From Eledone cirrhosa (lineage: Eukaryota): 64,000 bases of DNA. The translations under genes were made by a program, and so were the position numbers. Where the stretch lies: NCBI GenBank assembly GCA_964016885.1, contig OZ024740.1, forward strand, positions 293,942,001-294,006,000, given 5' to 3'. Under the pieces are notes generated by a model, which worked only from the letters and a program-made list of their open reading frames with translations, was not told the origin of the DNA and did no database searches. Positions 31,990 to 57,695 of the stretch are shown here, one piece after another (the stretch's first letter is position 1; each line of letters begins with the position of its first letter).

Positions 31990-33710
31990 TATTTGCGGGT
32001 CAGTTTTTTATTTGTGGGGATCCGTTTTCTATTTGTCGGCTGATCCGTTTTTTATTTGGAGTCCATTTTTTAATTGGGGTCCGTTTTTTTTAGTTGGCAG
32101 GGGTCCGTTTTTTATTTGGGGGGATCCGTTTTTTATTTGGATGTCCATTTTTTATTTGGGGGGATCCGTTTTTTATTTGGATGTCCAATTTTTATTTGGG
32201 GATCCATTTTTTTTGGGGGGGGGTATACGTTTTTCATTTGGGGCGTACGTTTTTTATTTGGGTGTTCATTTTTTATTTTGGAGGGGGTCCGTTTTTTATT
32301 TGGGAGTCCGTTTTTTATTTGGGTGTCCGTTTTTTATTTGGAGATTTGTTCTTTATTTGGGGAGATCCGTTTTTTATTTGGGTGTCCGTTTTTTATTTGG
32401 AGATTTGTTCTTTATTTGGGGAGATCCGTTTTTTATTTGGGTGTCCTCTTTTTATTTGGGGATCCGTTTTTTACTTGGAGGGGTCCGTTTTTTATTTGGG
32501 GATCCGTTTTATTTGAGGGTCAGTTTTTTATTTGGGGGGGGTCTGTTTTTATTTGTCGGCTGATCCATTTTTAATTTGGAGTCCCCATTTTTTTAATTGG
32601 GGGTCCGTTTTTTATTTGGGGGGATCCGTTTTTTATTTGGGTGTCCGTTTTTTATTTGGGGATCCATTTTTTATTTGGGTGTAGTTTTTTATTTGGATGT
32701 CCGTTTTTTATTTGGGGGAGGGGGACGTTTTTATTTGGGGGTCCGTTTTTTATTTGGCGATCCCTTTTCTATTTGGGGATCCATTTTTTATTTGGGTGTA
32801 GTTTTTTATTTGGGGATCCATTTTTATTTGGGTGTCCGTTTTTTATTTGGGGATCCATTTTATTTGCGGGTCAGTTTTTTATTTGTGGGGATCCGTTTTC
32901 TATTTGTCGGATGATCAGTTTTTTATTTGGAGTCCATTTTTTAATTGGGGTCCGTTTTTTTTAGTTGGCAGGGGTCCGTTTTTTATTTGGGGGGATCCGT
33001 TTTTTATTTGGATGTCCATTTTTTATTTGGAGGGATCCGTTTTTTATTTGGATGTCCAATTTTTATTTGGGGATCCATTTTGGGGGGGGCGTATACGTTT
33101 TTCATTTGGGGCGTCCGTTTTTTATTTGGGTGTCCATTTTTTATTTTGGAGGGGGTCCGTTTTTTATTTGGGGGTCCGTATTTTATTTTGGCGGATCCGT
33201 TTTTTATTTGGGTGTCCGTTTTTTATTTGGAGATTTGTTCTTTATTTGGGGAGATCCGTTTTTTATTTGGGTGTCCTCTTTTTATTTGGGGATCCGTTTT
33301 TTATTTGGAGGGGTCCGTTTTTTATTTGGGGATCCGTTTTATTTGAGGGTCAGTTTTTTATTTGGGGGGGTCTGTTTTTTATTTGTCGGCTGATCCATTT
33401 TTAATTTGGAGTCCCCATTTTTTTAATTGGGGGTCCGTTTTTTATTTGGTTATCCGTTTTTTATTTGGGGGGATCCGTTTTTTATTTGGGTGTCCGTTTT
33501 TTATTTGGGGATCCATTTTTTATTTGGGTGTAGATTTTTATTTGGATGTCCGTTTTTTATTTGGGGGAGGGGGACGTTTTTATTTGGGGGTCCGTTTTTT
33601 GTTTGGCGATCCCTTTTATATTTGGGGATCCATTTTTTATTTGGGTGTAGTTTTTTATTTGGGGATCCATTTTTATTTGGGTGTCCGTTTTTTATTTGGG
33701 GATCCATTTT
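31990..33710. repeat. Tandem ~870-bp duplication within domain B
   Basis: ORF pairs 32074/32945 and 32094/32965 offset 871; rare words tagttggcagggg and ggagtccccatt occur in both copies. Confidence 0.8.
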
Positions 33711-36700
33711 TTATTTGGGGATCCTTTTTTTATTTGGGGATCGGGGATCCGTTTTTTATTTGGCGTGGGGGTTTCATTTTTTTATTTGGGGTGATCCGTT
33801 TTTTATTTGGGGTCCATTTTTTATTTGGGGGTCCGTTTATTTATTTGTGGGTCCACTTTTTCTTTGGGGTCAGTTTTTTATTTTGGGATTCATTTTTTAT
33901 TTGGGGATCCGTTTTTTATTTCGGGATCGGGGATTCGTTTTTTATTTGGCATGCGGGGGTCATATTTTTATTTGGGGTGATCCTTTTTCTATTTGGGGTC
34001 CATTTTTTATTTGGGGGTCTGTTTATTTATTTGAGGGTCCATTTTTTATTTGGGGTCAGTTTTTTATTTGGGGATCCGTTTTTTATTTGGGGGAGAGTCC
34101 GTTTTTTGTATGGGGATCCGTCTTTTATTTGGGGGGGGTCCGTTTTTTATATGGGTGTCCGTTTCATATTTGGGGATCTGTTTTTTATTTGGGGGAGGGG
34201 GTTCGTTTTTTATTTTGGTGTCGGTTTTTTTATTTGGGGTTGGGGGTCAGTTTTTTATCTGGGTGTCCATTATTTATTTGGGCACCCGCTTTTTATTTGC
34301 GGGGGCCGTTTTTTATTTGGGTGGATCCGTTTTTTATTTGGGGGTCCGTTTTTTATTTGGGGTTGGGGGTCAGTTTTTTATTTGGGTGCCCGTTTTTTAT
34401 TTGGGCATCCGTTTTTTATTTGGGGGGATCTGTTTTTTATTTGGGTGTACGTTTTTTATTTGGGGGGGGGGTCCGTTTTTAATTTGGGAGTCCGTTTTTT
34501 TTATTTTGGAGGCTCCTTTTTTTATTTGGGAGATCCTTTTTTTATTTGGGGATCCGTTTTTTATTTGAGGGTCAGTTTTTTATTTGGGGATTCAATTTTT
34601 ATTTGGGGATCCGTTTTTTATTTGGGGATCGGGGATCCGTTTTTTATTTCGCGTGGGGGGGTCATTTTTTTATTTGGGGTGATCCGTTTTTTAATTGGGG
34701 TCTTTTTTTTATTTGGGGCTCCGTTTATTTATTTGAGGGTCCATTTTTTATTTGGGGTCAGTTTTTTATTTGGGGATCCGTTTTTTATTTGGGGGAGAGT
34801 CAGTTTCTTGTATGGGGTTCCGTCTTTTATTTGGGGGGTCCGTTTTTTATTTGGGTGTCCGTTTCATATTTGGGGATCCGTATTTTATTTGGGGGAGGGG
34901 GTCCGTTTTTTATTTGGGTGTCGGTTTTTTATTTGGGGTTGTGTGTCAGTTTTTTATTTGGGTGTCCATTTTCTACTTGGGCACCCGCTTTTTATTTGCG
35001 GGAGCCATTTTTTATTTGGGTGGATCCGTTTTTTATTTGGGGGTCCGTTTTTTATTTGGGGTCGGGGGTCAGTTTTTACTTGGGTGTCCGTTTTTATTTG
35101 GGCATCCGTTTTTTATTTGGGGGGGATCTGTTTTTTATTTGGGTGTACGTTTTTTATTTGGGGGGGTCCGTTTTTTATTTGGGAGTCCGTCTTTTTATTT
35201 TGGAGGCTCCTTTTTTTATTTGGGAGATCCTTTTTTATTTGGGGATCCGTTTTTTTATTTGAGGGTTAGTTTTTTATTTGGGGGGGTCCGTTTTTTATTT
35301 GTCGGCTGATCCGTTTTTTATTTGGAGTCCATTTTTTATTTGGGGGTCCGTTTTTTATTTGGGAGGATCCTTTTTTTTAATTGGGTGTCTATTTTTTATT
35401 TGGGGGGATCCGTTTTTTATTTGGATGTCCAATTTTTATTTGGGGATTCATTTTTTATTTGGGTGTCGTTTTTTAGGGGATAATTTTATTTGGGTATCCG
35501 TTTTTTATTTGGGGGATACGTTTTTCATTTGGGGGGGTCCGTTTTTTATTTGGGTGTCCATTTTTTATTTTGGAGGGGGTCCTTTTTTTATTTGGGGGGT
35601 ACGTATTTTATTTTGGGGATCCGCTTTTTATTTGGGTGTCCGTTGTTTTATTTGGAGATTTCTTTTTTATTTGGGGAGATCCGTTTTTTATTTGGGGATC
35701 CGTTTTTTATTTGGAGGGGTCCGTTTTTTATTTGGGGATCCGTTTTTTTATTTGAGGGTCAGTTTTTTATTTGTGGGGGTCCGCAATTTTTTTGGTCGGC
35801 TGATCCGTTTTTTATTTGGAGTCCATTTTTTAATTGGGGGTCCGTTTTTTGTATTGGGGGGTCCGTTTTTTATTTGAGGGGATCCGTTTTTTATTTGGGT
35901 GTCCATTTTTTATCTGGGGGGATCCGTTTTTTATTTGGATGTCCATTTTTATTTGGGGATCCATTTTTATTTGGGGGTTACGTTTTTCATTTGGAGGGTC
36001 TGTTTTTTATTTGGGTGTCCATTTTTTATTTTGGACGGGTCCGTTTTTTATTTGGGGGGTCCCTATTTTATTTTGGCGGATCCGTTTTTTATTTGGCGGA
36101 TCCGTTTTTTATTTGGAGATTTGTTCTTTATTTGGGGAGATCCGTTTTTTATTTGGGTGTCCTCTTTTTATTTGGGGATCCGTTTTTTATTTGGAGGGGT
36201 CCGTTTTTTATTTGGGGATCCGTTTTATTTGAGGGTTTGTTTTTTATTTGGGGGCGTTCGTTTTTTATTTGGAGTCCATTTTTTAATTGGGGGTCCGTTT
36301 TTTATTTGGGGGGATCCGTTTTTTATTTGGGTGTCCGTTTCTTATTTGGGTGTAGTTTTTTATTTGGATGTCCGTTATTTATTTGGGGAGGGGGCGTTTT
36401 TATTTGGGGGTCCGTTTTTTATTTGGGAATTCGTTTTTTATTTGGGGTGGGGGGCCGTTTTTATTTGGGGGTGGTCCGTTTTTTATTTGGGTGCCCGTTT
36501 TTTATTTGGGGATCCATTTTTTATTTGGGTGTAGTTTTTTATTTGGGGATCCATTTTTATTTGGGTGTCCGTTTTTTATTTGGAGGAGGATGCCGTTTTT
36601 TATTTGGGGGTCCGTCTTTTATTTGGGGGCATCCGTTTTTTATTTGGGGATTCGTTTTTTATTTGGGGTGGGGGGCCGTTTTTTATTTTGGTATCCGTTT

Positions 36701-39700
36701 TTTATTTGTGTGTCCGTTTTTTATTTGGGGATCCATTTTTTATTTGGGGATTCTTTTTTTATTTGGGGATCGGGGATCCGTTTTTTATTTGGCGTGGGGG
36801 AGTCATTTTTTTATTTGGGGTGATCCGTTTTTTATTTGGGGTCCATTTTTTATTTGGGGTCCGTTTATTTATTTGAGGGTCCATTTTTAATTTGGGGTCA
36901 GTTTTTTATTTGGGGATTCATTTTTCATTTGGGGATCCGTTTTTTATTTCGGGATCGGGGATTCGTTTTTTATTTGGCGTGGGGGGGTCATTTTTTTACT
37001 TGGGGTGATCCGTTTTTTATTTGGTGTCCATTTTTTATTTGGGGGTCCGTTTATCTATTTGAGGGTCCATTTTTTATTTGGGGATCCTTTTTTTATTTGG
37101 GGGAGAGTCCGTTTTTTGTATGGGGATCCGTCTTTTATTTGGGGGGGTCCATTTTTTATTTGGGTGTCCGTTTTATATTTGGGGATCCGTTTTTTATTTG
37201 GGTGAGGGGGTCCGTTTTTTATTTGGGTGTCGGTTTTTTATTTGGGGTTGGGGTCAGTTTTTTATTTGCGTGTCCATTTTTTATTTGGGGATCCATTTTA
37301 TTTGGGTATCCGTTTTTTATTTGGGGTATACCTTTTTCATTTGGGGGGTCCGTTTTTTATTTGGGTGTCCATTTTTTATTTAGGAGGGGGTCCGTTTTTT
37401 ATTTGGGGGCGTACGTATTTTATTTTGTGGGATCCGTATTTTATTTGGATGACCGTTGTTTTATTTGGAGATTTGTTTTTTATTTGGGGAGATCCGTTTT
37501 TATTTGGGTGTCTTCTTTTTGTTTGGGGATCCGTTTTTTATTTGGGGATCCGTTTTTTTATTTGCGGGTCAGTTTTTTATTTGTGGGGATCCGTTTTCTA
37601 TTTGTCGGCTGATCTGTTTTTTATTTGGAGTCCATTTTTTAATTGGGGTCCGTTTTTTTTAGTTGGCAGGGGTCCGTTTTTTATTTGGGGGATCCGTTTT
37701 TTATTTGGATGTCCATTTTTTATTTGGGGGGATCTGTTTTTTATTTGGATGACCATTTTTTATTTGGGGATCCATTTTTTGGGGCGTCCGTTTTTTATTT
37801 GGGTGTCCATTTTTTATTTTGGAGGGGGTCCGTTTTTTATTTGGGGGTCCGTATTTTATTTTGGCGGATCCGTTTTTTATTTGGGTGTCCGTTTTTTATT
37901 TGGAGATTTGTTCTTTATTTGGGGAGATCCGTTTTTTATTTGGGTGTCCTCTTTTTATTTGGGGATCCGTTTATTTATTTGAGGGTCCATTTTTAATTTG
38001 GGGTCAGTTTTTTATTTGGGGATTCATTTTTCATTTGGGGATCCGTTTTTTATTTCGAGATCGGGGATCTGTTTTTTATTTGGCGTGGGGGGGGGTCATT
38101 TTTTTATTTGGGGTGATCCGTTTTTTATTTGCGGTCCATTTTTTATTTGGGGGTCCGTTTATTTATTTGAGGGTTCATTTTTATTTGGGGTCAGTTTTTT
38201 ATTTGGGGATCCGTTTTTTATTTGGGGGAGAGTCCGTTTTTTGTATGGGGATCCGTCTTTTATTTGGGGGGGGTCCATTTTTTATTTGGGTGTCCGTTTT
38301 ATATTTGGGTGAGGGGGTCCGTTTTTTATTTGGGTGTCGGTTTTTTATTTGTGGTTGGGTCAGTTTTTTATTTGGGTGTCCATTTTTTATTTGGGGATCC
38401 ATTTTATTTGGGTATCCGTTTTTTATTTGGGGTATACCTTTTTCATTTGGGGGGTCCGTTTTTTATTTGGGTGTCCATTTTTTATTTAGGAGGGGGGTCC
38501 GTTTTTTATTTGGGGGCGTACGTATTTTATTTTGTGGGATCCGTATTTTATTTGGGTCTCCGTTGTTTTATTTGGAGATTTTTTTTTTTATTTGGGGAGA
38601 TCCGTTTTTATTTGGGTGTCTTCTTTTCGTTTGGGGATCCGTTCTTTATTTATAGGGATCCGTTTTTTATTTGGGGATCCGTTTTTTTATTTGCGGGTCA
38701 GTTTTTTTATTTGTGGGGATCCGTTTTTTATTTGTCGGCTGATCCGTTTTTTATTTGGGGTCCGTTTTTTTTAGTTGGCAGGGGTCCGTTTTTTATTTGG
38801 GGGATCCGTTTTTTATTTGGATGTCCATTTTTTATTTGGGGGGATCCGTTTTTTATTTGGATGTCCATTTTTTATTTGGGGATCCATTTTTTGGGGGGGA
38901 TACGTTTTTCATTTGGGGCGTCCGTTTTTTATTTGGGTGTCCATTTTTTATTTTGGAGGGGGTCCGTTTTTTATTTGGGGGTCCGTATTTTAGTTTGACG
39001 GATCCGTTTTTTATTTGGGGATCCGTCTTTTATTTGTTGGGGGGTCCATTTTTTATTTGGGTGTCCGTTTTATATTTGGGGATCCGTTTTTTATTTGGGT
39101 GAGGGGGTCCGTTTTTTATTTGGGTGTCGGTTTTTTATTTGGGGTTGGGGTCAGTTTTTTATTTGGGTGTCCATTTTTTATTTGGGTACCCGTTTTTTAT
39201 ATGCGGGGGCCGTTTTCTATTTGGGTGGATCCGTTTTTTATTTGGGGGTCCGTTTTTTATTTGGGGTTGGGGGGTCAGTTTTTTATTTGGGTGTCCGTTT
39301 TTTATTTGGGGATCCGTTCTCTATTTGGGGGGATCCGTTTTTTATTTGGAGTCCATTTTTTAATTGGGGGTCCGTTTTTTTAATTGGGGGGTCCGTTTTT
39401 TATTTGGGGGGATCCGTTTTTTATTTGGGTGTACATTTTTTATCTGGGGGGATCCGTTTTTTATTTGGATGTCCATTTTTTATTTGGGGGATACGTTTTT
39501 CATTTGGAGGGTCCGTTTTTTATTTGGGGGGTCCGTATTTTATTTTGGCGGATCCGTTTTTTATTTGGAGATTTGTTCTTTATTTGGGGAGATCCGTTTT
39601 TTATTTGGGTGTCCTCTTTTTATTTGGGGATCCGTTTTTTATTTGGAGGGGTCCTTTTTTTATTTGGGGATCCTTTTTATTTGAGGGTTTGTTTTTTATT

Positions 39701-42700
39701 TGGGCGGGTCCGTTTTTTATTTGTCGGCTGATCCGTTTTTTATTTGGAGTCCATTTTTTAATTGGGGGTCCGTTTTTTATTTGGGTATCCGTTTTTTATT
39801 TGGGTGTCCGTTTCTTATTTGGGTGTAGTTTTTTATTTGGATGTCCGTTATTTATTTGGGGGTGGTCCGTTTTTTATTTGGGTGCCCGTTTTTTATTTGG
39901 GGATCCATTTTTTATTTGGGTGTAGTTTTTTATTTGGGGATCCATTTTTATTTGGGTGTCCGTTTTTTATTTGGAGGAGGAGGCCGTTTTTTATTTGGGG
40001 GTCCATCTTTTATTTGGGGGCATCCGTTTTTTATTTGGGGATTCGTTTTTTATTTGGGGTGGGGGCCGTTTTTTATTTTGGTATCCGTTTTATATTTGTG
40101 TGTCCGTTTTTTATTTGGGGTTCGATTTTTTATTTGGGTGTCCGTTTTTTATTTGGGGATGCATTTTTATTTGGGTATCCGTTATTTATTTGGGGTGGGC
40201 GGTCCGTTTTTTATTTTGGGTCCATTTTTTATTTGGGTGTCCGTTTTTTATTTGGGGATCGGGGATCCGTTTTTTATTTGCCGTGGGGGGGGGGCATTTT
40301 TTATTTGGGGTGATCCGTTTTTTATTTGGGGTCCATTTTTTATTTGGGGTCCGTTTATTTATTTGAGGGTCCATTTTTTATTTGGGGTCAGTTTTTTATT
40401 TGGGGATCCGTTTTTTATTTGGAGTCCATTTTTTATTTGGGGGGTCCGTTTTTAATTTGGGGGGATCCGTTTTTTATTTGGGTGTCCATTTTTTATTTGG
40501 GGGGATCCGTTTTTTATTTGGATGTGCATTTTTTATTTGGGGATCCATTTTTTATTTGGGTGTCGTTTTTTATTTGGGGATCCGTTTTTTATTTGGAGGG
40601 GTCCGTTTTTTATTTGGGGATCCGTTTTATTTGAGGGTTTGTTTTTTATTTGGGGGGGTCCGTTTTTTATTTGTTGGCTGATCCGTTTTTTATTTGGAGT
40701 CCATTTTTTAATTGGGGGTCCGTTTTTTATTTGGGGGGGATCCGTTTTTTATTTGGGGGGATCCGTTTTTTATTTGGGTGTCCGTTTCTTATTTGGGTGT
40801 ATTTTTTTATTTGGATGTCCGTTATTTATTGGGGGGGGGGGCGTTTTTATTTGGGGGTCCGTTTTTTATTTGGGAATTCGTTTTTTATTTGGGGTGGGGG
40901 GCCGTTTTTATTTGGGGGTGGTACGTTTTTTATTTGGGTGCCCGTTTTTTATTTGGGGATCCATTTTTTATTTGGGTGTACTTTTTTATTTGGGGATCCA
41001 TTTTTATTTGGGTGTCCGTTTTTTATTTGGAGGAAGAGGCCGTTTTTTATTTGGGCGTCCGTCTTTTATTTGGGGGCATCCGTTTTTTATTTGGGGATTC
41101 GTTTTTTATTTGGGGTGGGGGGCCGTTTTTTATTTTGGTATCCGTTTTTTATTTGTGTGTCCGTTTTTTATTTGGGGTTCGATTTTTTATTTGGGTGTCG
41201 GTTTTTTATTTGGGGATGCATTTTTATTTGGGGGGATCCGTTTTTTATTTGGGTGGATCCGTTTTTTATTTGGATGTGCATTTTTTATTTGGGGATCAAT
41301 TTTTTATTTGGGTCTCGTTTTTTATTTGTGGATCCATTTTATTTGGGTATCCGTTTTTTATTTGGGGGATACGTTTTTCATTTGGTGGGTCCGTTTTTTA
41401 TTTGGGTGTCCATTTTTTATTTTGAAGGGGGTCCGTTTTTTATTTGTGGGGTACGTATTTTATTTTGGGGGATCCGTTTTTTATTTGGGTGTCCGTTGTT
41501 TTATTTGGAGTTTTGTTTTTTATTTGGGGAGATCCGTTTTTTATTTGGGTGTCCTCTTTTTATTTGGGGATCCGTTTTTTATTTGGAGGAGTCCATTTTT
41601 TATTTGCGGATCCGTTTTTTTATTTGAGGGTCAGTTTTTTTATTTGTGGGGGTCCGTTTTTTATTTGTCGGCTGATCCGTTTTTTATTTGGAGTCCATTT
41701 TTTAATTGGGGGTCCGTTTTTTTAATTGGGGGGTTCGTTTTTTATTTGGGGGATCCGTTTTATTATTTGGGTGTACATTTTTTATCTGGGGGGATCCGTT
41801 TTTTATTTGGATGTCCATTTTTTATTTGGGGATCCATTTTTTATTTGGGGGATACGTTTTTCATTTGGAGGGTCCGTTTTTTATTTGGGTGTCCATTTTT
41901 TATTTTGGAGGGGTTCCGTTTTTTATTTGGGGGGTCCGTATTTTATTTTGGCGGATCCGTTTTTTATTTGGCGGATCCGTTTTTTATTTGGACATTTGTC
42001 CTTTATTTGGGGAGATCCGTTTTTTATTTGGGTGTCCTCTTTTTATTTGGGGATCCGTTTTTTATTTGGAGGGGTCCGTTTTTTATTTGGGGATCCGTTT
42101 TATTTGAGGGTTTGTTTTTTATTTGGGGGGTCCGTTTTTTATTTGTCGGCTGATCCGTTTTTTATTTGGAGTCCATTTTTTAATTGGGGGTCCGTTTTTT
42201 ATTTGGGGGGATCCGTTTTTTATTTGGGTGTCCGTTTCTTATTTGGGTGTAGTTTTTTAGTTGGATGTCCGTTATTTATTTTTTTTGGGGGGGGTGGCGT
42301 TTTTATTTGGGGGTCCGTTTTTTATTTGGGAATTCGTTTTTTATTTGGGGTGGGGGCCGTTTTTATTTGGGGGTGGTCCGTTTTTTATTTGGATGCCCGT
42401 TTTTTATTTGGGGATCCATTTTTTATTTGGGTGTAGTTTTTTATTTGGGGATCCATTTTTATTTGGATGTCCGTTTTTCATTTGGAGGAGGAGGCCGTTT
42501 TTTATTTGGGGGTCCGTTTTTTATTTGGGGGCATCCGTTTTTTATTTGGGGATTCGTTTTTTATTTGGGGTGGGAGGTCGTTTTTTATTTTGGTATCCGT
42601 TTTTTATTTGTGTGTCCGTTTTTTATTTGGGGTTCGATTTTTTATTTGGGTGTCCGTTTTTTATTTGGGGATCCGTTTTTTATTTGGGGATCGGGGATCC

Positions 42701-43172
42701 GTTTTTTATTTGGCGTGGGGGGGTCATTTTTTATTTTGGGTGATCGGTTTTTTATTTGGGGTCCATTTTTTATTTGGGGGTCCGTTTATTTATTTGAGGG
42801 TCCATTTTTAATTTGGGGTCAGTTTTTTATTTGGGGATTCATTTTTCATTTGGGGATCCGTTTTTTATTTCGGGATCGGGGATCCGTTTTTTATTTGGCG
42901 TGGGGGGGGCATTTTTTTATTTGGGGTGATCCGTTTTTTATTTGGGGTCCATTTTTTATTTGGGGGTCCGTTTATTTATTTGAGGGGCCATTTTTTATTT
43001 GGGGTCAGTTTTTTATTTGGGGATCCGTTTTTTATTTGGGGGAGAGTCCGTTTTTTGTATGGGGATCCGTCTTTTATTTGGGGGGGTCCATTTTTTATTT
43101 GGGTGTCCGTTTTATATTTGCGGATACGTTTTTTATTTGGGTGAGGGGGTCCGTTTTTTATTTGGGTGTCGG

Positions 43173-46100
43173 TTTTTTATTTGGGTGTCCATTTTTTATT
43201 TGGGCACCCGTTTTTTATATGTGGGGGCCGTTTTCTATTTGGGGGGATCCGTTTTTTATTTGGGTGTCCATTTTTTATTTGGGGGGATCCGTTTTTTATT
43301 TGGATGTCCATTTTTTATTTGGGGATCCATTTCTTATTTGGGTGTCGTTTTTTATTTGGGGATCCATTTTATTTGGGTATCCGTTTTTTATTTGGGGGAT
43401 ACGTTTTTCATTTGGTGGGTCCGTTTTTTATTTGGGTGTCCATTTTTTATTATGGAGGGGGTCCGTTTTTTATTTGTGGGGTACGTATTTTATTTTGGGG
43501 GATCCGTTTTTTATTTGTGTGTCCGTTGTTTTATTTGGAGTTTTGTTTTTTATTTGGAGAGATCCGTTTTTTATTTGGGTGTCCTCTTTTTATTTGGGGA
43601 TCCGTTTTTTATTTGGAGGGGTCCATTTTTTATTTGGGGGTCAGTTGTTTATTTGTGGGGGTCCGTTTTTTATTTGTCGGCTGATCCGTTTTTTATTTGG
43701 AGTCAATTTTTTTATTGGTGGTCCGTTTTTTATATGGGGGGATTCGTTTTTTATTTGGAGGAGGGGGCGTTTTTATTTGGGGGTCCGTTTTTTATTTGGG
43801 GGGATCCGTTTTTTATTTGGGGTGGTGGGGCCGTTTTTATTTGGGGGTGGTCCGTTTTCTATTTGGGTGTCCGTTTTTTATTTGGGGATCCAGTTTTTAT
43901 TTGGGTGTAGCTTTTTATTTGGGGATACATTTTTATTTGGGTGTCAGTTTTTTATTTGGAAGAGGGGGGCGTTTGTTATTTGCGGGTCCGTTTTTTATTT
44001 GGGGGATCCGTTTTTTATTTGGGGGGTTATTTGGGGGTGGTCCGTTTTTTATTTGGGGATCCATTTTTTATTTGGGTGTAGTTTTTTATTTCGAGGAGGG
44101 GGCGTTTTTATTTGGGGGTCCGTTTTTTATTTGGGGGGATCCGTTTTTTATTTGGTAATTCGTTTTTTATTTGGGGTGGTGGGGCCGTTTTTATTTGGGC
44201 TGGTCCGTTTTTTATTTGGGTCTCCGTTTTTTATTTGGGGATCCAGTTTTTATTTGGGTGTAGCTTTTTATTCGGGGATACATTTTTATTTGTGTGTCCG
44301 TTTTTTATTTGGAAGAGGGGGCGTTTTTTATTTGGGGGTCCGTTTCTTATTTGGGAATTCGTTTTTTAATTGGGGTGGGGGTGGGGCCTTTTTTTTGGGG
44401 GGGGGCGTTTTTATTTGGGGTGGTCCGTGTTTTATTTGGGTGTCCGTTTTTTATTTGGAGGAGGGGTTCGTTTTTTATTTGGGGGGATCCGTTTTTTATT
44501 TGGGGTGGGGGCCGTTTTTTATTTGGCGGTGCTCCGTTTTTTATTTTGGTATCCGTTTTTGATTTGGGGGGTTCCGTTTTTTATTTGTGTCCGTTGTTTA
44601 TTTGGGGTTCGATTTTTTATTTGGGTGTCCTTTTTTTATTTGGGGATCCGTTATTTATTTGGGGTGGGGGGTCCGTTTTTTATTTGGGGTCCATTTTTTA
44701 TTTGTGTGTCCGTTGTTTATTTGGGGTTCGATTTTTTATTTGGGTGTCCGTTTTTTATTTGGGGATGCGTTATTCATTTGGGGTGGGGGTCCGTTTTTTA
44801 TTTGGGGTCCATTTTTTATTTGGGTGTCCGTTTTTTATTTGGGGATCCATTTTTATTTGGGGATCCGTTTTTTATTTGGGGATCGGGGATTCGTTTTTTA
44901 TTTGAGGTGGGGGGGGGTCATTTTTTATTTGGGGTGATCCGTTTTTTATTTGGGGTCCATTTTTATTTGGGGGTCCGTTTATTTATTTGAGGGTCCATTT
45001 TTTATTTGGGGTTTCATTTTTTATTTGGGGATCCGTTGTTTATTTGGGGATCGGGGATCCGTTTTTTATTTGGCGTGGGAGGGGTCATTTTTTTATTTGG
45101 GGTGATCCGTTTTTTATTTGGGGTCCATTTTTATTTGGGGGTCCGTTTATTTATTTGAGGGTCTATTTTTTATTTGGGGTAAGTTTTTTATTTGGGGGAG
45201 AGTCCGTTTTTTGTATGGGGATCGGTCTTTTATTTGGGTGTCCGTTTTATATTTGGGGATCCGTTTTTTATTTGGGGGAGGGGGTCCGTTTTTTATTTGG
45301 GGATCCGTTTTTTATATGGGGGGATCCGTTTTTTATTTGGGGAGGGTCCGTTTTTTATTTGGGAGTCGGTTTTTTTATTTTGGAGGCTCCTTTTTTTATT
45401 TGGGAGATCCTTTTTTTATTTGGGGGGGTCCGTTTTTTATTTGGGGAATCCATTTTTTATTTGTCGGCTGATCCGTTTTTTATTTGGGGGGTCCGTTTTT
45501 TATTTGGGGGGTCCATATTTTATTTGGGGTGATCCGTTTTTTATTTGGATGTTCAATTTTTATTTGGGGATCCATTTTTTATTTGGGGAGATCCGTTTTT
45601 TATTTGGGTGTCCTCTTTTGGGGGGGATCTGTTTTTTTATTTGAGGGTCAGTTTTTTATTTGTGGGGGTCCGTTTTTTATTTGTCGGCTGATCCGTTTTT
45701 TATTTGGAGTCCATTTTTTAATTGGGGGTCCGTTTTTTTAATTGGGGGGTCCGTTTTTTATTTGGGTGGATCCGTTTTTTATATGGGTGTCCATTTTTTA
45801 TTTGGGGGGATCCGTTTTTTATTTGGATGTCCATTTTTTATTTGGGGATCCATTTTTTATTTGGGGGATACGTTTTTCATTTGGGGGGGTCCGTTTTTTA
45901 TTTGGGTGCCCATTATTTTATTTTGGAGGGTGTCCGTTTTTTATTTGGAGATTTGTTCTTTATTTGGGGAGATCCGTTTTTTATTTGGGTGTCCTCTTTT
46001 ATTTGGGGATCCGTTTTTTATTTGGAGAGGTCCGTTTTTTATTTGGGGGTCAGTTTTTTATATGGGGGGGGTCCGTTTTTTATTTGTCGGCTGATCCGTT

Positions 46101-49100
46101 TTTAATTTGGAGTCCATTTTTTTATTGGGGGCCCGTTTTTTATTTGGGTATCCGTTTTTTATTTGGGGAGATCCGTTTTTTATTTGGGTGTCCGTTTTTT
46201 ATTTGGGGATCCATTTTTTATTTGGCCACCCGTTTTTTATTTCCGGGGGGCCGTTTTTTATTTGGGTGGATCCATTTTTTATTTGGGGGTCCGTTTTTTA
46301 TTTGGGGTTGGGTGTCAGTTTTTTATTTGGGTGTCCATTTTTTATTTGGGCACCCGTTTTTTATATGTGGGGGCCGTTTTCTATTTGGGGGGATCCGTTT
46401 TTTATTTGGGTGTCCATTTTTTATTTGGGGGGATCCGTTTTTTATTTGGATGTCCATTTTTTATTTGGGGATCCATTTCTTATTTGGGTGTCGTTTTTTA
46501 TTTGGGGATCCATTTTATTTGGGTATCCGTTTTTTATTTGGGGGATACGTTTTTCATTTGGTGGGTCCGTTTTTTATTTGGGTGTCCATTTTTTATTATG
46601 GAGGGGGTCCGTTTTTTATTTGTGGGGTACGTATTTTATTTTGGGGGATCCGTTTTTTATTTGTGTGTCCGTTGTTTTATTTGGAGTTTTGTTTTTTATT
46701 TGGAGAGATCCGTTTTTTATTTGGGTGTCCTCTTTTTATTTGGGGATCCGTTTTTTATTTGGAGGGGTCCATTTTTTATTTGGGGGTCAGTTGTTTATTT
46801 GTGGGGGTCCGTTTTTTATTTGTCGGCTGATCCGTTTTTTATTTGGAGTCAATTTTTTTATTGGTGGTCCGTTTTTTATATGGGGGGATTCGTTTTTTAT
46901 TTGGAGGAGGGGGCGTTTTTATTTGGGGGTCCGTTTTTTATTTGGGGGGATCCGTTTTTTATTTGGGGTGGTGGGGCCGTTTTTATTTGGGGGTGGTCCG
47001 TTTTCTATTTGGGTGTCCGTTTTTTATTTGGGGATCCAGTTTTTATTTGGGTGTAGCTTTTTATTTGGGGATACATTTTTATTTGGGTGTCCGTTTTTTA
47101 TTTGGAAGAGGGGGGCGTTTGTTATTTGCGGGTCCGTTTTTTATTTGGGGGATCCGTTTTTTATTTGGGGGGTTATTTGGGGGTGGTCCGTTTTTTATTT
47201 GGGGATCCATTTTTTATTTGGGTGTAGTTTTTTATTTCGAGGAGGGGGCGTTTTTATTTGGGGGTCCGTTTTTTATTTGGGGGGATCCGTTTTTTATTTG
47301 GTAATTCGTTTTTTATTTGGGGTGGTGGGGCCGTTTTTATTTGGGCTGGTCCGTTTTTTATTTGGGTCTCCGTTTTTTATTTGGGGATCCAGTTTTTATT
47401 TGGGTGTAGCTTTTTATTCGGGGATACATTTTTATTTGTGTGTCCGTTTTTTATTTGGAAGAGGGGGCGTTTTTTATTTGGGGGTCCGTTTCTTATTTGG
47501 GAATTCGTTTTTTAATTGGGGTGGGGGTGGGGCCTTTTTTTTTTGGGGGGGGGCGTTTTTATTTGGGGTGGTCCGTGTTTTATTTGGGTGTCCGTTTTTT
47601 ATTTGGAGGAGGGGTTCGTTTTTTATTTGGGGGGATCCGTTTTTTATTTGGGGTGGGGGCCGTTTTTTATTTGGCGGTGCTCCGTTTTTTATTTTGGTAT
47701 CCGTTTTTGATTTGGGGGGTTCCGTTTTTTATTTGTGTCCGTTGTTTATTTGGGGTTCGATTTTTTATTTGGGTGTCCTTTTTTTATTTGGGGATCCGTT
47801 ATTTATTTGGGGTGGGGGGTCCGTTTTTTATTTGGGGTCCATTTTTTATTTGTGTGTCCGTTGTTTATTTGGGGTTCGATTTTTTATTTGGGTGTCCGTT
47901 TTTTATTTGGGGATGCGTTATTCATTTGGGGTGGGGGGTCCGTTTTTTATTTGGGGTCCATTTTTTATTTGGGTGTCCGTTTTTTATTTGGGGATCCATT
48001 TTTATTTGGGGATCCGTTTTTTATTTGGGGATCGGGGATTCGTTTTTTATTTGAGGTGGGGGGGGGGGGTCATTTTTTATTTGGGGTGATCCGTTTTTTA
48101 TTTGGGGTCCATTTTTATTTGGGGGTCCGTTTATTTATTTGAGGGTCCATTTTTTATTTGGGGTTTCATTTTTTATTTGGGGATCCGTTGTTTATTTGGG
48201 GATCGGGGATCCGTTTTTTATTTGGCGTGGGGGGGGTCATTTTTTTATTTGGGGTGATCCGTTTTTTATTTGGGGTCCATTTTTATTTGGGGGTCCGTTT
48301 ATTTATTTGAGGGTCTATTTTTTATTTGGGGTAAGTTTTTTATTTGGGGATCCGTTTTTTATTTGGGGGAGAGTCCGTTTTTTGTATGGGGATCGGTCTT
48401 TTATTTGGGTGTCCGTTTTATATTTGGGGATCCGTTTTTTATTTGGGGGAGGGGGTCCGTTTTTTATTTGGGGATCCGTTTTTTATATGGGGGGATCCGT
48501 TTTTTATTTGGGGAGGGTCCGTTTTTTATTTGGGAGTCGGTTTTTTTATTTTGGAGGCTCCTTTTTTTATTTGGGAGATCCTTTTTTTATTTGGGGGGGT
48601 CCGTTTTTTATTTGGGGAATCCGTTTTTTATTTGTCGGCTGATCCGTTTTTTATTTGGGGGGTCCGTTTTTTATTTGGGGGGTCCATATTTTATTTGGGG
48701 TGATCCGTTTTTTATTTGGATGTTCAATTTTTATTTGGGGATCCATTTTTTATTTGGGGAGATCCGTTTTTTATTTGGGTGTCCTCTTTTGGGGGGGATC
48801 TGTTTTTTTATTTGAGGGTCAGTTTTTTATTTGTGGGGGTCCGTTTTTTATTTGTCGGCTGATCCGTTTTTTATTTGGAGTCCATTTTTTAATTGGGGGT
48901 CCGTTTTTTTAATTGGGGGGTCCGTTTTTTATTTGGGTGGATCCGTTTTTTATATGGGTGTCCATTTTTTATTTGGGGGGATCCGTTTTTTATTTGGATG
49001 TCCATTTTTTATTTGGGGATCCATTTTTTATTTGGGGGATACGTTTTTCATTTGGGGGGGTCCGTTTTTTATTTGGGTGCCCATTATTTTATTTTGGAGG

Positions 49101-49508
49101 GTGTCCGTTTTTTATTTGGAGATTTGTTCTTTATTTGGGGAGATCCGTTTTTTATTTGGGTGTCCTCTTTTATTTGGGGATCCGTTTTTTATTTGGAGAG
49201 GTCCGTTTTTTATTTGGGGGTCAGTTTTTTATATGGGGGGGGGTCCGTTTTTTATTTGTCGGCTGATCCGTTTTTAATTTGGAGTCCATTTTTTTATTGG
49301 GGGCCCGTTTTTTATTTGGGTATCCGTTTTTTATTTGGGGAGATCCGTTTTTTATTTGGGTGTCCGTTTTTTATTTGGGGATCCATTTTTTATTTGGCCA
49401 CCCGTTTTTTATTTCCGGGGGGCCGTTTTTTATTTGGGTGGATCCATTTTTTATTTGGGGGTCCGTTTTTTATTTGGGGTTGGGTGTCAGTTTTTTATTT
49501 GGGTGTCC
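43173..49508. repeat. Tandem ~3.15 kb higher-order duplication (about 43173-46318 and 46319-49508)
   Basis: ORF pairs 43697/46843 and 44112/47258 (3146), 44987/48139 (3152), 45484/48655 (3171), 46107/49279 (3172). Confidence 0.93.
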
Positions 49509-51329
49509 GTTTTTTATTTGGGATCCGTTTTTTATTTGGGGGGTCCGTTTTTTATTTGGGAGTCCGTTTTTTTATTTGGGGGGGTCCGTTTTTTATTTGG
49601 GGATCCATTTTTTTATTTGAGGGTCAATTTTTTATTTGGGGGTCCGTTTTCTATTTGTCGGCTGATCCGTTTTATATTTGGAGTCCATTTTTTATTTGGG
49701 GGGGTCCGTTTTTTATTTGGATGTCCATTTTTTATTTGGGGGTCGTTTTTTATTTGGGGATCCATTTTATTTGGGTATCCGTTTTTTATTTGGGGGATAC
49801 GTTTTTCATTTGGAGGGTCCGTTTTTTATTTGGGTGTCCATTTTTTATTTTGGAGATTTGTTTTTTATTTGGGGAGATCCGTTTATTATTTGGGTGTCCT
49901 CTTTTTATTTGGGGATCCGTTTTTTATTTGGAGGCGTCCATTTTTATTTGGGGATCCGTTTTTTTATTTGAGGGTCAGTTTTTTATTTGTGGGGGTCCGT
50001 TTTTTATTTGCGTATCCGTTTTTTATTTGGGGGATCCGTTTTTTATTTGGGGATCCATTTTTTATTTGGGTGTAGTTTTTTATTTGGAGGAGAGGGCCGT
50101 TTTTATTTGGGGGTCGGTTTTTTATTTGGGGGGATCCTTTTTTTATTTGGGAATTCGTTTTTTATTTGGGGTGGTGGGGCCGTTTTTATTTGGAGGTCGT
50201 CCGTTTTTTATTTGGGTGTCCGTTTTTTATTTGGGGATCCATTTTTTATTTGGGTGTAGCTTTTTATTTGGGGATACATTTTTATTTGGGCGTCCGTTTT
50301 TTATTTGCGGGATCCGTTTTTTATTTGGGAATTCGTTTTTAATTGGGGTGGGGGGGCCGTTTTTATTTGGGGGTGGTCCGTTTTTTATTTGAGTGTCCGT
50401 TTTTTATTTGGGGATCCAGTTTTTATTTGGGTGTTGTTTTTTATTTGAGGATCCATTTTTATTTGGGTGTCCGTATTTTATTTCGAGGAGGGGTCCGTTT
50501 TTTATTTGGGGGGATCCGTTTTTTATTTGGATGTCCAGTTTTTATTTGGGGAAACATTTTTTATTTGGGAGTCGTTTTTTATTTGGGGATCCATTTTTTA
50601 TTTGGGGATCCGTTTTTTATTTGGCGTGGGGGGTCATTTTTTCATTTGGGGTGATCCGTTTTTTATTTGGGCTCCATTTTTTATTTGGGGGTCCGTTTTT
50701 TATTTGGAGTCAGTTTTTGATTCGGGGGAGTGCGTTTTTTATTTGGGGGCTGATCCGTTTTTTATTTGGAGTCCATTTTTTTATTGGGGTCCGTTTTTTA
50801 TTTGGGGGTGTCCGTTTTTTATTTGGGGATCCGTTTTTTATTTGGGGGAGAGTCCGTTTTTTGTATGGGGATCCGTCTTTTATTGGGGGGATCCATTTTT
50901 TATTTGGGTGTCCGTTTTATATTTGGGGTTCCGTTTTTTATTTGGGTGTCGGTTTTTTTATTTGTGTTTCCGTTTTTTATTTGCGGATCCGTTTATTATT
51001 TGTGGGGATCCGTTTTTTATTTGGGGATCAGTTTTTTATTTGGGGGGTCCGTTTTTTATTTGTCGACTGATCCGTTTTTTATTTGGAGTCCATTTTTTAA
51101 TTGGGTGTCCGTTTTTTATTTGGGGGATCCGTTTTTTATTTGGATGTCCAGTTTTTATTTGGGGATCCATTTTTTATTGGTGTCGTTTTTTATTTGGGGA
51201 TCCATTTTATTTGGGTATACGTTTTTTATTTGGGGGATACGTTTTTCATTTTGGGGGTCCGTTTTTTATTTGGGTGTCCATTTTTTATCTTGGAGGGGGT
51301 CCGTTTTTTATTTGGGGGTACGTATTTTA

Positions 51330-52940
51330 TTTTGGGGGACCGTTGTTATATTTGGAGATTTGTTTTTTATTTGGGGAGATCCGTTTTTTATTTGGGTGTC
51401 CGTTTTTTATTTGGAGGGGTCCGTTTTTTATTTGGGGATCCGTTTTTTTATTTGAGGGTCAGTTTTTTATTTGTGGGGGTCCGTTTTTTATTTGTCGGCT
51501 GATCCGTTTTTTATTTGGAGTCCATTTTTTAATTGGGCGTACGTTTTTTTAATTGGAGGGGGTCCGTTTTTTATTTGGGGGGATCCGTTTTTTATTTGGG
51601 TGTCCATTTTTTATTTGGGGATCCATTTTTTATTTGGGGGATACGTTTTTCATTTGGAGGGTCCGTTTTTTATTTGGGTGTCCATTTTATTATTTTGGAG
51701 GGGGTCCGTTTTTATTTGGGGGGTCCGTATTTTATTTTGGGCGTTCCGTTTTTTATTTGGAGATTTCTTTATTTGGGGAGATCTGTTTTTTATTTGGAGT
51801 CCATTTTTTAATTGGGTGTCCGTTTTTTATTTGGGGGGTCCGTTTTTTATTTGGGGGGATCCGTTTTTTATTTGAATGTCCAGTTTTTATTTGGGGATCC
51901 ATTTTTTATATGGGTGTCGTTTTTTATTTGGGGATCCATTTTATTTGGGTATCCGTTTTTTATTTGGGTGTCCATTTTTATCTTGGAGGCGGTCCGTTTT
52001 TTATTTGGGGGGTACGAATTTTATTTTGGGGGACCGTTGTTATATTTGGAGATTTGTTTTTTATTTGGGGAGATCCGTTTTTTATTTGGGTGTCTTTTTA
52101 TTTGGGGATCCGTTTTTTATTTGGAGGGGTCCGTTTTTTATTTGGGGATCCGTTTTTTTATTTGAGGGTCAGTTTTTTATTTGTGGGGTCCGTATTTTAT
52201 TTGTCGGCTGATCCGTTTTTTATTTGGAGTCCATTTTTTAATTGGGCGTCCGTTTTTTTAATTGGAGGGGGTCCGTTTTTTATTTGGGGGGATCCGTTTT
52301 TTATTTGGGTGTCCATTTTTTATTTGGGGATCCATTTTTTATTTGGGGGATACGTTTTTCATTTGGAGGGTCCGTTTTTTATTTGGGTGTCCATTTTATT
52401 ATTTTGGAGGGGGTCCGTTTTTATTTGGGGGGTCCGTATTTTATTTTGGGGGTTCCGTTTTTTATTTGGAGATTTCTTTATTTGGGGAGATCCGTTTTTT
52501 ATTTGGAGTCCATTTTTTAATTGGGTGTCCGTTTTTTATTTGGGGGGTCCGTTTTTTATTTGGGGGGATCCGTTTTTATTTGAATGTCCAGTTTTTATTT
52601 GGGGATCCATTTTTTATATGGGTGTCGTTTTTTATTTGGGGATCCATTTTATTTGGGTATCCGTTTTTTATTTGGGGGATACGTTTTTCATTTTGGGGCT
52701 CCGTTTTTTATTTGGGTGTCCATTTTTATCTTGGAGGCGGTCCGTTTTTTATTTGGGGGGTACGTATTTTATTTTGGGGGACCGTTGTTATATTTGGAGA
52801 TTTGTTTTTTATTGGGGAGATCCGTTTTTTATTTGGGTGTCTTTTTATTTGGGGATCCGTTTTTTATTTGGAGGGGTCCGTTTTTTATTTGGGGATCCGT
52901 TTTTTATTTGAGGGTCAGTTTTTTATTTGTGGGGGTTCGT
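51330..52940. repeat. Tandem ~709-bp duplication near the array end
   Basis: ORF pairs 51533/52242 (709) and 51876/52584 (708); rare word ttgaatgtccag in both copies. Confidence 0.85.
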
Positions 52941-53851
52941 TTTTTATTTGTCGGCTGATCCGTCTATTATTTGGAGTCCATTTTTTAATTGGGGGTCCGT
53001 TTTTTTAATTGGAGGGGGTCCGTTTTTTATTTGGGGGGATCCGTTTTTTATTTGGGTGTCCATTTTTTATTTGGGCGGATCCGTTTTTTATTTGGATGTC
53101 CGTTTTTTATTTGGGTGTCCATTTTTTTATTTTGGAGGGGGTCCGTTTTTTATTTGGGGGGTCCGTATTTTATTTTGGGGGATCCGTTTTTTATTTGGGT
53201 GTCCGTTTTTTATTTGGAGATTTGTTCTTTATTTGGGGAGATCCGTTTTTTATTTGAGTGTCCTCTTTTTATTTGGGGATCCGTTTTTTATTTGGAGGGG
53301 TCCGTTTTTTATTTGGGGATCCGTTTTATTTGAGGGTTTGTTTTTTATTTGGGGGGGGGCCGTTTTTTATTTGTCGGCTGATCCGTTGTTTATTTGGGGG
53401 TTCGTTTTTTATTTGGGGATCCATTTTTTATTTGGGTTTAGTTTTTTATTTGGATGTCCGTTTTTTATTTGGAGGGGGGGGGGCGTTTTTATTTGGGGGG
53501 TCCGTTTTTTATTTGGGGGGATCCGTTTTTTATTTCGGAATTCGTTTTTTATTTGGGGTGGGGGGCCGTTTTTATTTGGGGGTGGTCCGTTTTTTATTTG
53601 GGTGTAGTTTTTTATCTGGGGATCCATTTTTATTTGGGTGTCCGTTTTTTATTTGCGGGGGGGGGTCCGTTTTTTATTTTGGAGGCTCCGCTTTTTATTT
53701 GGGGAACCGCTTTTTATTGGGGGGGTCCGTTTTTTATTAGGCGGATCCCTTTTTATTTGGGGGAGTCCGTATTTTTTTTTTTGGGGGGGGGGTCCGTTTT
53801 TTATTTGTTGAAACGACGACAGCTGTGCCGTCAATCTCCCTACACTCTCTC

Positions 53852-54107
53852 TATATATATATTTAAAAGAATTGAAGTCAGTGTTGTAGCATAAGTACAA
53901 ATTTTATTTGCATATTACAATTGTTTCGATATCGATCAGCTCAGGGTACATATAAGCTCGCATATCTGACAAGATGTAAAAAAGAGAGTCAGTCCCCGTC
54001 ACCTTGATTGTAGTCTGAGCTGATCGATATCCAAACAATTGTAATATGCCTATAAAATGTGTACATATCCAGCAACATTAACTTTGACTCTTTTAAATTT
54101 ATTTATA
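53852..54107. mobile_element. Fold-back / MITE-like element with ~95-bp imperfect terminal inverted repeats
   Basis: Left arm 53852-53950 (...gcatattacaattgtttcgatatcgatcagctcag) is the reverse complement, with scattered mismatches, of 54009-54107 (ctgagctgatcgatatccaaacaattgtaatatgc...); both ends lie in TATA, compatible with a TA target site. Confidence 0.8.
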
Positions 54108-54262
54108 CTCTGCACACTACAGCCGTAACTCTGGAATACAACCCAAACAAAACGGACCTCGTAACAGCATTGAGTGTGTAGCGCTCTCTAGACAATGGAA
54201 GTAGCTGGAGTTACTTCCCGTTGAAATTCCAGAACCTTTCTTGTAACTTCCCTCCAGGGAAC

Positions 54263-54270
54263 TATAAAAG
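54263..54270 (+). promoter_or_regulatory. TATA box (TATAAAAG) of the putative LTR
   Basis: Consensus TATAAAAG about 25-30 nt upstream of a pyrimidine-rich tctctcttttca stretch. Confidence 0.4.
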
Positions 54271-54291
54271 AGGGAGCTCAAAGCTATCTTT

Positions 54292-54788
54292 CTCTCTTTT
54301 CACCTCTAGGCCGCCTGGCCTAGTAAGGCCAAGCATGGTTTCGCCAAAAGTATACTCTCTTTTCACTTTTTGGCCGCCTGGCCTCGTAAGGCCAGGCATG
54401 GTTACGCCAAAGTTTTGGGGATCTGTTTTTTATTTGGGGGGTCCGCTTTTTATTTGGGGATGTTTTTATTTGGGGATGTTTTTATTTGGGGTGGGGGTCC
54501 GTTTTTTATTTGGGGATCCATTTTGTATTTGGGGATACGTTATTTATTTGGGGTGGGGGGGTCCGTTTTTTATTTGGAGGGGATCCGTTTTTTATTTAGG
54601 GGTATCCGTTTTTTATTTGGGGATCCGTTTTTTATTTGGGGGGTCCGTTTTTTATTGGGGGGGTTCCGTTTTTTATTGGGGGGGGTCCGTTTTTTATTTG
54701 GTTACGCCAAAAGTATACTCTCTTTTCACCTTTTGGCCGCCTGGCCTAGTAAGGCCAGGCATGGTTACGCCAAAGGTATACTCTCTTT
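54292..54788. repeat. Three copies of a 63-bp unit containing a 9-bp stem-loop GCCTGGCCT-AGTA-AGGCCAGGC; second copy interrupted by satellite
   Basis: Units in register at 54301, 54364 and 54727 (63 and 63+300 apart); hairpins at 54313-54334, 54376-54397 and 54739-54760. Confidence 0.93.
54412..54698. repeat. Orphan 287-bp block of domain-B satellite flanked by a 13-bp direct repeat TGGTTACGCCAAA
   Basis: Direct repeat at 54399-54411 and 54699-54711; deleting 300 bp restores an intact 63-bp unit. Confidence 0.92.
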
Positions 54789-55120
54789 CTGGCGGTTTCT
54801 TCTGAAGCTGACAACACCGAGCACAAGCATGCTAGCATTCTTCGAATCACACCTCATGGTTCTGGACTATATCTCATAATGCTGCCTAGACATTTGTTTA
54901 CTACACTTTTGTAATATGGACTACAAATAAATCAAGTTACTTTTGATATTCGGTTGAGAAATTGTTACACTTTAATCATTACCTTTTGTAGTAAGAGATG
55001 ACTCACACGAGACACGAATTTGTAGGAAAGTACTCCTACCCTTTTTCTTTCTTAAATTTAGTAGCTGGGATCCGGTGGTGCTTACCGGAGTAAGTAAATC
55101 TGCGACCAGCTCACTAAAAG

Positions 55121-55140
55121 TGGTGACCCGCCGACGTGAT
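55121..55140 (+). promoter_or_regulatory. Primer-binding site complementary to the tRNA-Trp 3' end, with a 2-nt insertion
   Basis: TGGTGACCC[GC]CGACGTGAT versus the established tRNA-Trp PBS TGGTGACCCCGACGTGAT. Confidence 0.75.
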
Positions 55141-55290
55141 GCGAACACACAACATGGAAAAAACACAAACAAAATCTTCTTTCGTTGCAGCAAACTCATC
55201 AACAATTTGCAACCCGAAAGAACAAAAAATAAGGAACATGCAGACATACTTTTCGTTGGGACACACTTTCTTCCACCTAACGTGGAATGC

Positions 55291-55398
55291 GGACACAAAA
55301 TTTCTCCAGCATTTTAGGACACAAAATTTTCTCCGACAAACAACAAAAAAATTCGGACACAAAATTTCTCCACTATTCTAGGACACAAAATTTTCTCC
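55291..55398. repeat. Four copies of GGACACAAAATTT(T)CTCC arranged as a duplicated 64-bp dimer
   Basis: Copies at 55291, 55317, 55355 and 55381. Confidence 0.85.
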
Positions 55399-55409
55399 GA
55401 TAAACATTG

Positions 55410-57691: not shown

Positions 57692-57695
57692 CATA

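What the first reader, a model, noticed from the sequence alone, without database searches (positions are those of the whole stretch)
54399..54711. Satellite fragment inserted with an exact 13-bp target duplication: a footprint of satellite mobility
Seen: 287 bp of pure domain-B monomers lie between two copies of TGGTTACGCCAAA exactly 300 bp apart. The neighbouring 63-bp units give the empty site, and removing 300 bp restores it. The right junction shares TGG microhomology with the linker (tatttgg). There is no poly(A), TIR or coding sequence, and the block has the same orientation as the main array ~600 bp away. Inference: the satellite can seed new sites through a staggered-break mechanism: target-primed reverse transcription of satellite RNA, templated insertion during end joining, or eccDNA capture. 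This is the best candidate here for an undescribed process.
Basis: partly seen in the sequence, partly recalled or inferred. Interest (0 to 1): 0.75.

Follow-up and report, generated by a model that had tools for sequence, protein, structure and literature searches.

The report
One-off satellite patch in an LTR
A 287-base piece of a neighbouring repeat array sits inside an old retrotransposon end between two copies of host sequence, likely pasted in once by an ordinary replication or repair slip at a DNA hairpin, while the same repeat elsewhere in the genome mostly sits inside rolling-circle transposons (Helitrons) that likely carry it.

Summary
In detail: 287 bp of satellite lie between two TGGTTACGCCAAA copies 300 bp apart, inside an LTR. 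Short-read contigs bridge the left junction; no listed contig bridges the right one. Three things weaken the 'undescribed mobility' reading. (1) The 13-bp repeat is equally the end of a 76-77-bp duplication; two diagnostic substitutions fit this, so the empty site may have had two units, not three. (2) Of 88 other satellite blocks with both ends read, 75 have a non-autonomous Helitron at one or both ends. Only 10 are carrier-free, and just 2 of these have abutting repeats (12 and 7 bp), both in (TA)n. (3) Satellite pieces inserted with flanking duplications and microhomology are already described (human alpha satellite, Drosophila Rsp-like). No donor was found. The piece lies 605 bp from a 60-kb array in the same orientation, and the duplication starts one base beyond a 9-bp hairpin. 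Best reading: one local template switch. The scan has already noted Helitron-borne satellites, and a repair-seeded satellite, elsewhere in this genome.

The parts
1..53807 (+). Main G/T-rich ~20-bp satellite array (about 60 kb in all; it begins about 6.6 kb left of the window); likely donor
54177..55118 (+). Host LTR (about 518 bp in other copies, TG start; 6 of the 7 copies with both ends found, out of 12 examined, are solo LTRs with 4-bp target duplications), here lengthened by two extra 63-bp units and the satellite
54292..54354 (+). 63-bp unit 1
54355..54411 (+). unit 2, first 57 bp; shares a derived base with unit 3
54376..54397 (.). perfect 9-bp-stem hairpin ending one base before the duplicated sequence (equivalents at 54313-54334 and 54739-54760)
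   Evidence: unit 3: -16.3 kcal/mol, z -5.39, 0 of 200 shuffles
54412..54698 (+). satellite insert, about 14 monomers, with a private 16-bp internal duplication
54718..54780 (+). 63-bp unit 3, continuing into the normal LTR
55119..55406 (+). primer-binding-site-like motif (label recalled, not tested) and short internal sequence shared with one other copy (L004)

Best explanation
The block is a 287-bp satellite piece inside an LTR copy, flanked by a duplication of host sequence, and it likely arose in a single local template switch during replication or break repair. Shown: the anatomy, the hairpin, the uniqueness of the extra units, the lack of a donor match, and the rarity of such blocks. Inferred: a strand copying the LTR from right to left stalled at the base of the 9-bp hairpin. 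It annealed by its last 3 bases to a TGG in the array about 600 bp away, copied about 14 monomers, and returned behind the stall point. The return was either one unit back (76-77-bp duplication, two-unit ancestor; slightly favoured) or in the same unit (13 bp, three-unit ancestor). The donor stretch was probably overwritten later by array turnover. The satellite's usual way of moving in this genome is different: it rides in non-autonomous Helitrons and sometimes expands inside them.
For: Proximity: 605 bp from a large array on the same strand. Landing within 1 kb of any of roughly 120 blocks by chance is about 1e-4; the block number is my rough estimate. The array's last 800 bp share more 14-mers with the insert than any other window of that array; 12 of 717 satellite windows score higher by 14-mers and 2 by 18-mers. 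The duplication's 5' edge is one base from a perfect hairpin, and the microhomology is at that edge. The unit variants fit a duplication across the unit boundary: at unit column 15 units 2 and 3 share a base absent from 19 of 19 family copies, and at column 58 unit 1 and the piece right of the insert share one absent from 19 of 19. Base 54412 matches the host base that follows unit 3's copy, and that letter precedes TTTTGGGG in only 25 of 499 satellite cases. The LTR copy had already undergone a tandem duplication found nowhere else. The satellite is switch-prone: fold-back inversions at 7 fetched loci and many deletion junctions. Similar blocks are rare: 2 of 10 carrier-free sites, both in (TA)n.
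Against: No colinear donor. The best hit in the adjacent array is 273 bits (82%), inside the range of monomer-shuffled controls (254-304), whereas 30 of 30 array chunks have a partner at 347-518 bits. The array's end is not the best colinear match either (327 against 348). Two insert motifs occur nowhere else in the assembly. A Markov classifier placed the insert with Helitron-derived arrays in 8 of 8 rounds (C3:148M 7, C1:290M 1), not with the adjacent array, though by small margins. The best BLAST hit overall is a Helitron-borne block (L052, 322 bits, above all 40 shuffles), but the shuffles also prefer that block in 28 of 40. The hairpin coincidence was noticed after the fact; 54177-54411 holds 7 TGG sites. 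A 16-bp duplication with one lost A explains base 54412 too. The right junction is not read-confirmed.
Confidence: 0.58

Rival explanations
1. A staggered break in a three-unit LTR was filled in and captured a free satellite fragment (extrachromosomal circle, or single-stranded Helitron by-product) by end joining, which gave a true 13-bp target duplication.
For: The 13-bp repeat is exact. Composition leans to Helitron-borne blocks. A 12-kb carrier-free array at C2:241.6M has a 12-bp abutting repeat, above the null maximum of 9. Satellite circles are documented in Drosophila (PMC7403614, passages).
Against: It needs an extra, independent unit expansion and does not explain the position next to the array. 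The insert's end joined to its start is not a normal monomer junction (0 occurrences in the fetched satellite for the 13-bp reading, 23 for the 16-bp reading). The duplicated bases are host sequence, not shared satellite homology as in the alpha-satellite circle model (PMC7719264, section 16).
Confidence: 0.22
2. A LINE reverse transcriptase copied an internal piece of a satellite or Helitron transcript at a nick (target-primed reverse transcription), primed by the 3-base match.
For: A 13-bp duplication with 3' microhomology fits internal priming (established knowledge of non-LTR retrotransposition, recalled). The genome holds RT-encoding elements.
Against: No poly(A) or simple-repeat tail, and no sister retrocopies among 88 sites. 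Retroposition would not favour a site 605 bp from an array.
Confidence: 0.08
3. The block is a stranded end of the main array, left behind by a local rearrangement that placed about 600 bp of flank inside the array, not a new insertion.
For: Same strand; composition closest to the array's near end.
Against: The LTR reads on across the block with a duplication. The array's left end abuts unrelated RT and GIY-YIG-like sequence, with no similarity to the right flank.
Confidence: 0.07
4. Assembly or consensus artefact at the edge of a large array.
For: The right junction is not among the listed read contigs; the multi-unit state is unique to this locus.
Against: A 198-bp short-read contig without differences spans unit 1, unit 2 and 64 bp of the insert at single-copy depth. 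Three overlapping contig pieces tile 54446-54577 with gaps. The three units differ by point substitutions.
Confidence: 0.05

Closest known systems
Rsp-like satellite clusters inserted into 1.688 repeats, Drosophila simulans clade (PMC7403614; 12 passages read)
   Same: A short satellite array in another repeat, with microhomology at one junction; in four clusters a 32-bp duplication of host sequence that includes the microhomology. The authors propose MMEJ, FoSTeS/MMBIR, template switching or circles.
   Different: There the junction recurs in 19 of 31 clusters; here it is a single event in an LTR next to a large array and a hairpin.
Dispersed euchromatic alpha-satellite repeats in primates (PMC7719264; passages and section 16 read)
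   Same: Unique short satellite pieces inside other repeats (Alu, L1, ERV), with duplications at most sites and no carrier element.
   Different: Those duplications are 2-10 bp and are read as homology between satellite and target. Here 13 or 76 bp of host sequence are duplicated and only 3 bp are shared with the satellite.
Cg_HINE Helentron-borne satellite arrays of the Pacific oyster (PMC7492417; 12 passages read)
   Same: Describes how this satellite family is spread overall: short arrays with fixed flanks and fixed orientation inside non-autonomous rolling-circle elements, without target duplication.
   Different: The carriers here have canonical Helitron ends (TC...CTAG at A|T), not Helentron ends; the window block has no carrier ends.
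Templated insertions and small duplications from alternative end joining (review PMC7407515; 12 passages read)
   Same: Secondary structure near a break, microhomology, templated insertion, duplication with insertion from nearby DNA.
   Different: The passages read mention donors within 200 bp; here the insert is 287 bp, the likely donor is about 600 bp away, and no donor was identified.

Membership tests
Retroposed (TPRT) insertion | Target-site duplication abutting both junctions | tested here: inconclusive
   13 bp exact, but equally 76-77 bp with 3 mismatches
Retroposed (TPRT) insertion | 3' poly(A) or simple-repeat tail, or a LINE-like 3' end | tested here: not met
   both ends are satellite monomer sequence
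Retroposed (TPRT) insertion | A transcript of the donor exists | not testable with these tools
   no RNA run was listed
Helitron-borne satellite (the window block) | Helitron flanks or ends around the array | tested here: not met
   neither flank matches carrier A or H; the flanks are LTR
Helitron (carriers A and H elsewhere in the genome) | 5' TC, 3' CTAG, insertion between A and T | tested here: met
   carrier A 3' CTAG|T in 11 of 12 ends, A|TC in 13 of 16; H-type 3' CTAG|T in 18 of 18. The probes included the end motifs with mismatches allowed; the H 5' end was not tallied
Helitron (carriers A and H elsewhere in the genome) | 3' subterminal hairpin | tested here: inconclusive
   present in H (-4.3 kcal/mol), absent in A (-0.6)
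Helitron (carriers A and H elsewhere in the genome) | Rep-helicase coding sequence | tested here: inconclusive
   H: PIF1 E=2.5e-44 and Pif1_2B E=1.3e-10, no Rep-domain hit in 2 upstream frames; A: the one frame tested had no hit
Templated insertion by template switching or alternative end joining | Microhomology at a junction | tested here: met
   3 bp at the right junction, 0-1 bp at the left
Templated insertion by template switching or alternative end joining | Identifiable nearby template | tested here: inconclusive
   the same family lies 605 bp away, but no colinear donor was found
Templated insertion by template switching or alternative end joining | Structure-forming DNA at the breakpoint | tested here: met
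   hairpin, z -5.39, one base from the junction
eccDNA reintegration | First and last partial monomers join into a whole monomer | tested here: inconclusive
   not met for the 13-bp reading, tolerable for the 16-bp reading
eccDNA reintegration | Circles of this satellite exist | not testable with these tools
   no circle-enriched data

The most novel reading that the evidence does not exclude
Besides riding Helitrons, this G-run-rich satellite seeds new carrier-free loci at structure-forming targets (hairpins, (TA)n tracts) through a duplication-leaving insertion. The window block, the 414-bp block at C4:3.0M and the 12-kb array at C2:241.6M would then be the seed and grown stages of one route to new arrays.
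Probability: 0.15. Interest if true: 0.55.

Novelty: new member of a known kind. Interest (0 to 1): 0.27.

Why it matters
How satellites reach new sites is still open, and clean single events with readable junctions are useful. This locus keeps an unusually clear record (hairpin, microhomology, dated unit variants), and the survey gives rough proportions for one family: about 85% of sampled blocks have a Helitron end and about 11% are carrier-free. It also shows that an 'exact target duplication' inside a tandem host can be the tail of a longer duplication. It does not show a new process.

Tried and rejected
Donor search: the genome-wide DNA search scored only 11 of 2577 candidates, best 86%, so it is weak. 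An exact 25-mer and a 31-mer with up to 2 mismatches hit only the insert. BLAST against 307 kb of fetched satellite and against later blocks (best 256 bits) found no donor; the longest exact match, 52 bp, lies within the shuffled range of 37-56. Empty allele: none seen. The 'goes back 426' joint is unit 1 sequence fitting unit 3 after cropping. No RNA holder was listed. Multi-unit paralogue as a stand-in empty site: none; the two 1-mismatch hits are not multi-unit. I first read carrier A as a retroposon from its 3' coding-like fragment; that frame had no Pfam hit and the ends are Helitron-like, so I dropped it. The carriers are two separate elements, not one large composite. A telomerase-like origin was considered from the irregular G-runs, but nothing was tested (PMC2246262 seen only as a listing). 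Left out of the count of 88: tandem, fold-back or open-ended loci (C1:145.5M, 163.6M, 208.7M, 279.6M; C2:162.1M, 244.3M, 279.1M; C3:309.6M; C4:193.4M; C5:46.9M, 72.8M, 73.1M; C6:82.7M). Repeats at sites with minisatellite A on both sides were not counted as target duplications, because the target is itself tandem. Pattern sampling favours longer blocks, so short orphans are under-sampled; some hit lists were cut at 100 places. Literature: searches listed no paper on this satellite or on satellite retroposition with target duplication (titles and abstract starts only; subscription papers are not covered; no supplements were read).

Full report
Setting. The window lies at G000:C1:293,942,001-294,006,000 of a 3.0-Gb animal assembly. 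Earlier scan notes call it likely an octopus; I did not test that. Bases 1 to about 53807 are a strand-biased ~20-bp satellite. The array starts about 6.6 kb left of the window, so it is about 60 kb long.

Observation. The 13-mer occurs at 54399 and 54699, with 287 bp of monomers between them. Pairings of unrelated block ends never gave a repeat of 10 bp or more (0 of 414). Short-read contigs bridge the left junction in 3 of 3 runs of one sample, once with no differences over 198 bp at depth 8.3. No listed piece bridges the right junction, the table was cut, and the sample may be the assembly's own.

Host. The block sits in a dispersed repeat (245 candidates, 40 scored). Of 12 copies examined, 7 had both ends found, and 6 of these are solo LTR-like copies with 4-bp target duplications. 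All 19 of 19 copies carry one 63-bp unit and no satellite. The unit-unit junction exists only here.

The duplication is ambiguous. Units 2 and 3 share one base absent from 19 of 19 family copies, and unit 1 shares another with the piece right of the insert. So the last duplication copied the boundary between two older units. This fits a 63-bp expansion followed by an insertion with a 13-bp repeat. It also fits one event that duplicated 76 bp (54336-54411 and 54699-54774, 3 mismatches) around the satellite. The second reading needs one event fewer and also explains base 54412, whose letter precedes the satellite motif in only 25 of 499 cases. A 16-bp repeat with one lost base is a third option. 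I favour the longer duplication only slightly.

Junction chemistry. Each unit holds a 9-bp-stem hairpin (unit 3: z -5.39). The stem ends one base before the duplicated sequence begins, on the side with the TGG microhomology. A polymerase moving right to left would stall there (inference, noticed after the fact).

Donor. None was found. Two insert motifs are unique genome-wide. The best match in the adjacent array is no better than shuffled monomers, while 30 of 30 array chunks have close partners within the array. Composition gives mixed signals. The array's last 800 bp are its best-matching window and lie in the top 2% of 717 windows, but they are not colinear, and a Markov classifier preferred Helitron-derived arrays in 8 of 8 rounds. 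The position 605 bp from a large array has a chance of about 1e-4 to 1e-5 under random landing (rough block count). That is the main reason to prefer a local template, later overwritten.

How the family really spreads. Pattern searches led to 88 other blocks with both ends read (68, 19, 1). Of these, 75 have a carrier at one or both ends: 72 by BLAST and 3 by shared junctions. Three share a third flank type (L021, L110, L203; I moved L203 here by eye because its BLAST flag was a (TA)n match). Ten are carrier-free (C1:73.5M judged by eye). The two carriers are non-autonomous Helitrons with TC...CTAG ends at A|T. In carrier H the satellite interrupts PIF1 helicase coding sequence. Several long arrays keep carrier ends. 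Among the 10 carrier-free blocks, 2 have abutting repeats: 12 bp at C2:241.6M and 7 bp at L196, both in (TA)n, where unrelated ends match by 8-9 bp. L159 has a 422-bp LINE stretch on both sides at 84% identity, which may be two different copies. The other 7 show no duplication.

Comparison. Satellite pieces in other repeats with flanking duplications are described for human alpha satellite (2-10 bp; PMC7719264, section read). They are also described for Drosophila Rsp-like clusters (32-bp duplication including microhomology; PMC7403614, passages; the lead came from scan note e1-9812318). Helitron-type carriage of satellites is described in oyster (PMC7492417, passages). Templated insertions near structured DNA are reviewed in PMC7407515 (passages). 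Searches listed nothing on this particular family.

Verdict. A real and tidy example of a known class of event, most likely a single local template switch (0.58). Capture at a staggered break (0.22), retroposition (0.08), a stranded array end (0.07) and artefact (0.05) are less likely. A recurring carrier-free seeding route is not excluded (0.15) but rests on one or two low-complexity cases. Interest 0.27.

Noticed in passing
L023, L024, L091, L114 and about 15 more H-type loci: A non-autonomous Helitron in which the satellite block interrupts the PIF1 helicase coding region at fixed junctions, with further deletion derivatives extending from the block.
   Followed up: partly
L029, L052, L104, L121 and other A-type loci: A second ~4.7-kb Helitron carries the satellite nested inside another minisatellite; 21 exact copies of the junction motif genome-wide.
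   Followed up: partly
L108, L160, L197: Chimeric blocks with carrier A sequence on the left and carrier H on the right, which suggests exchange through the satellite.
   Followed up: no
G000 C3:148.2M, C4:237.8M and 238.0M, C1:290.4-290.9M, C2:314.2M, C3:221.5M: Long arrays that keep a Helitron carrier end, likely grown in place.
   Followed up: partly
L028, L102, L148, L164, L177, L189, L202: Fold-back (inverted) arrangements within satellite blocks; at C1:279.6M they alternate over about 80 kb.
   Followed up: no
G000 C1:163.63M; C5:72.83M and 73.05M; C5:46.86M: Satellite-containing units repeated in tandem with periods of about 4.4 kb, 1.0 kb and 6.8 kb.
   Followed up: no
L171:2200-2230 and L086:4385-4410; L196:2885-3310: Carrier-free blocks inside (TA)n tracts with 12-bp and 7-bp abutting repeats; possible further duplication-leaving insertions.
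   Followed up: partly
L123:1473-2909: Left of the main array, a 478-codon open frame joins a reverse-transcriptase part (Pfam RVT_1 E=3.5e-10) to a GIY-YIG-like part (E=0.004, below cut-off); possibly a junction of a LINE and a Penelope-like element.
   Followed up: partly
window 53900-54060: Inverted-repeat pair of a small high-copy element between the array and the LTR (high contig depth).
   Followed up: no
window 56500-56900, 57500-58700, 61500-62950: Decayed non-LTR retrotransposon pieces and SINE-like repeats; labels recalled from sequence appearance, not tested.
   Followed up: no
L188:1-1242 region: An array at C2:244.3M begins directly after a run of N, so its left end is unresolved.
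   Followed up: no
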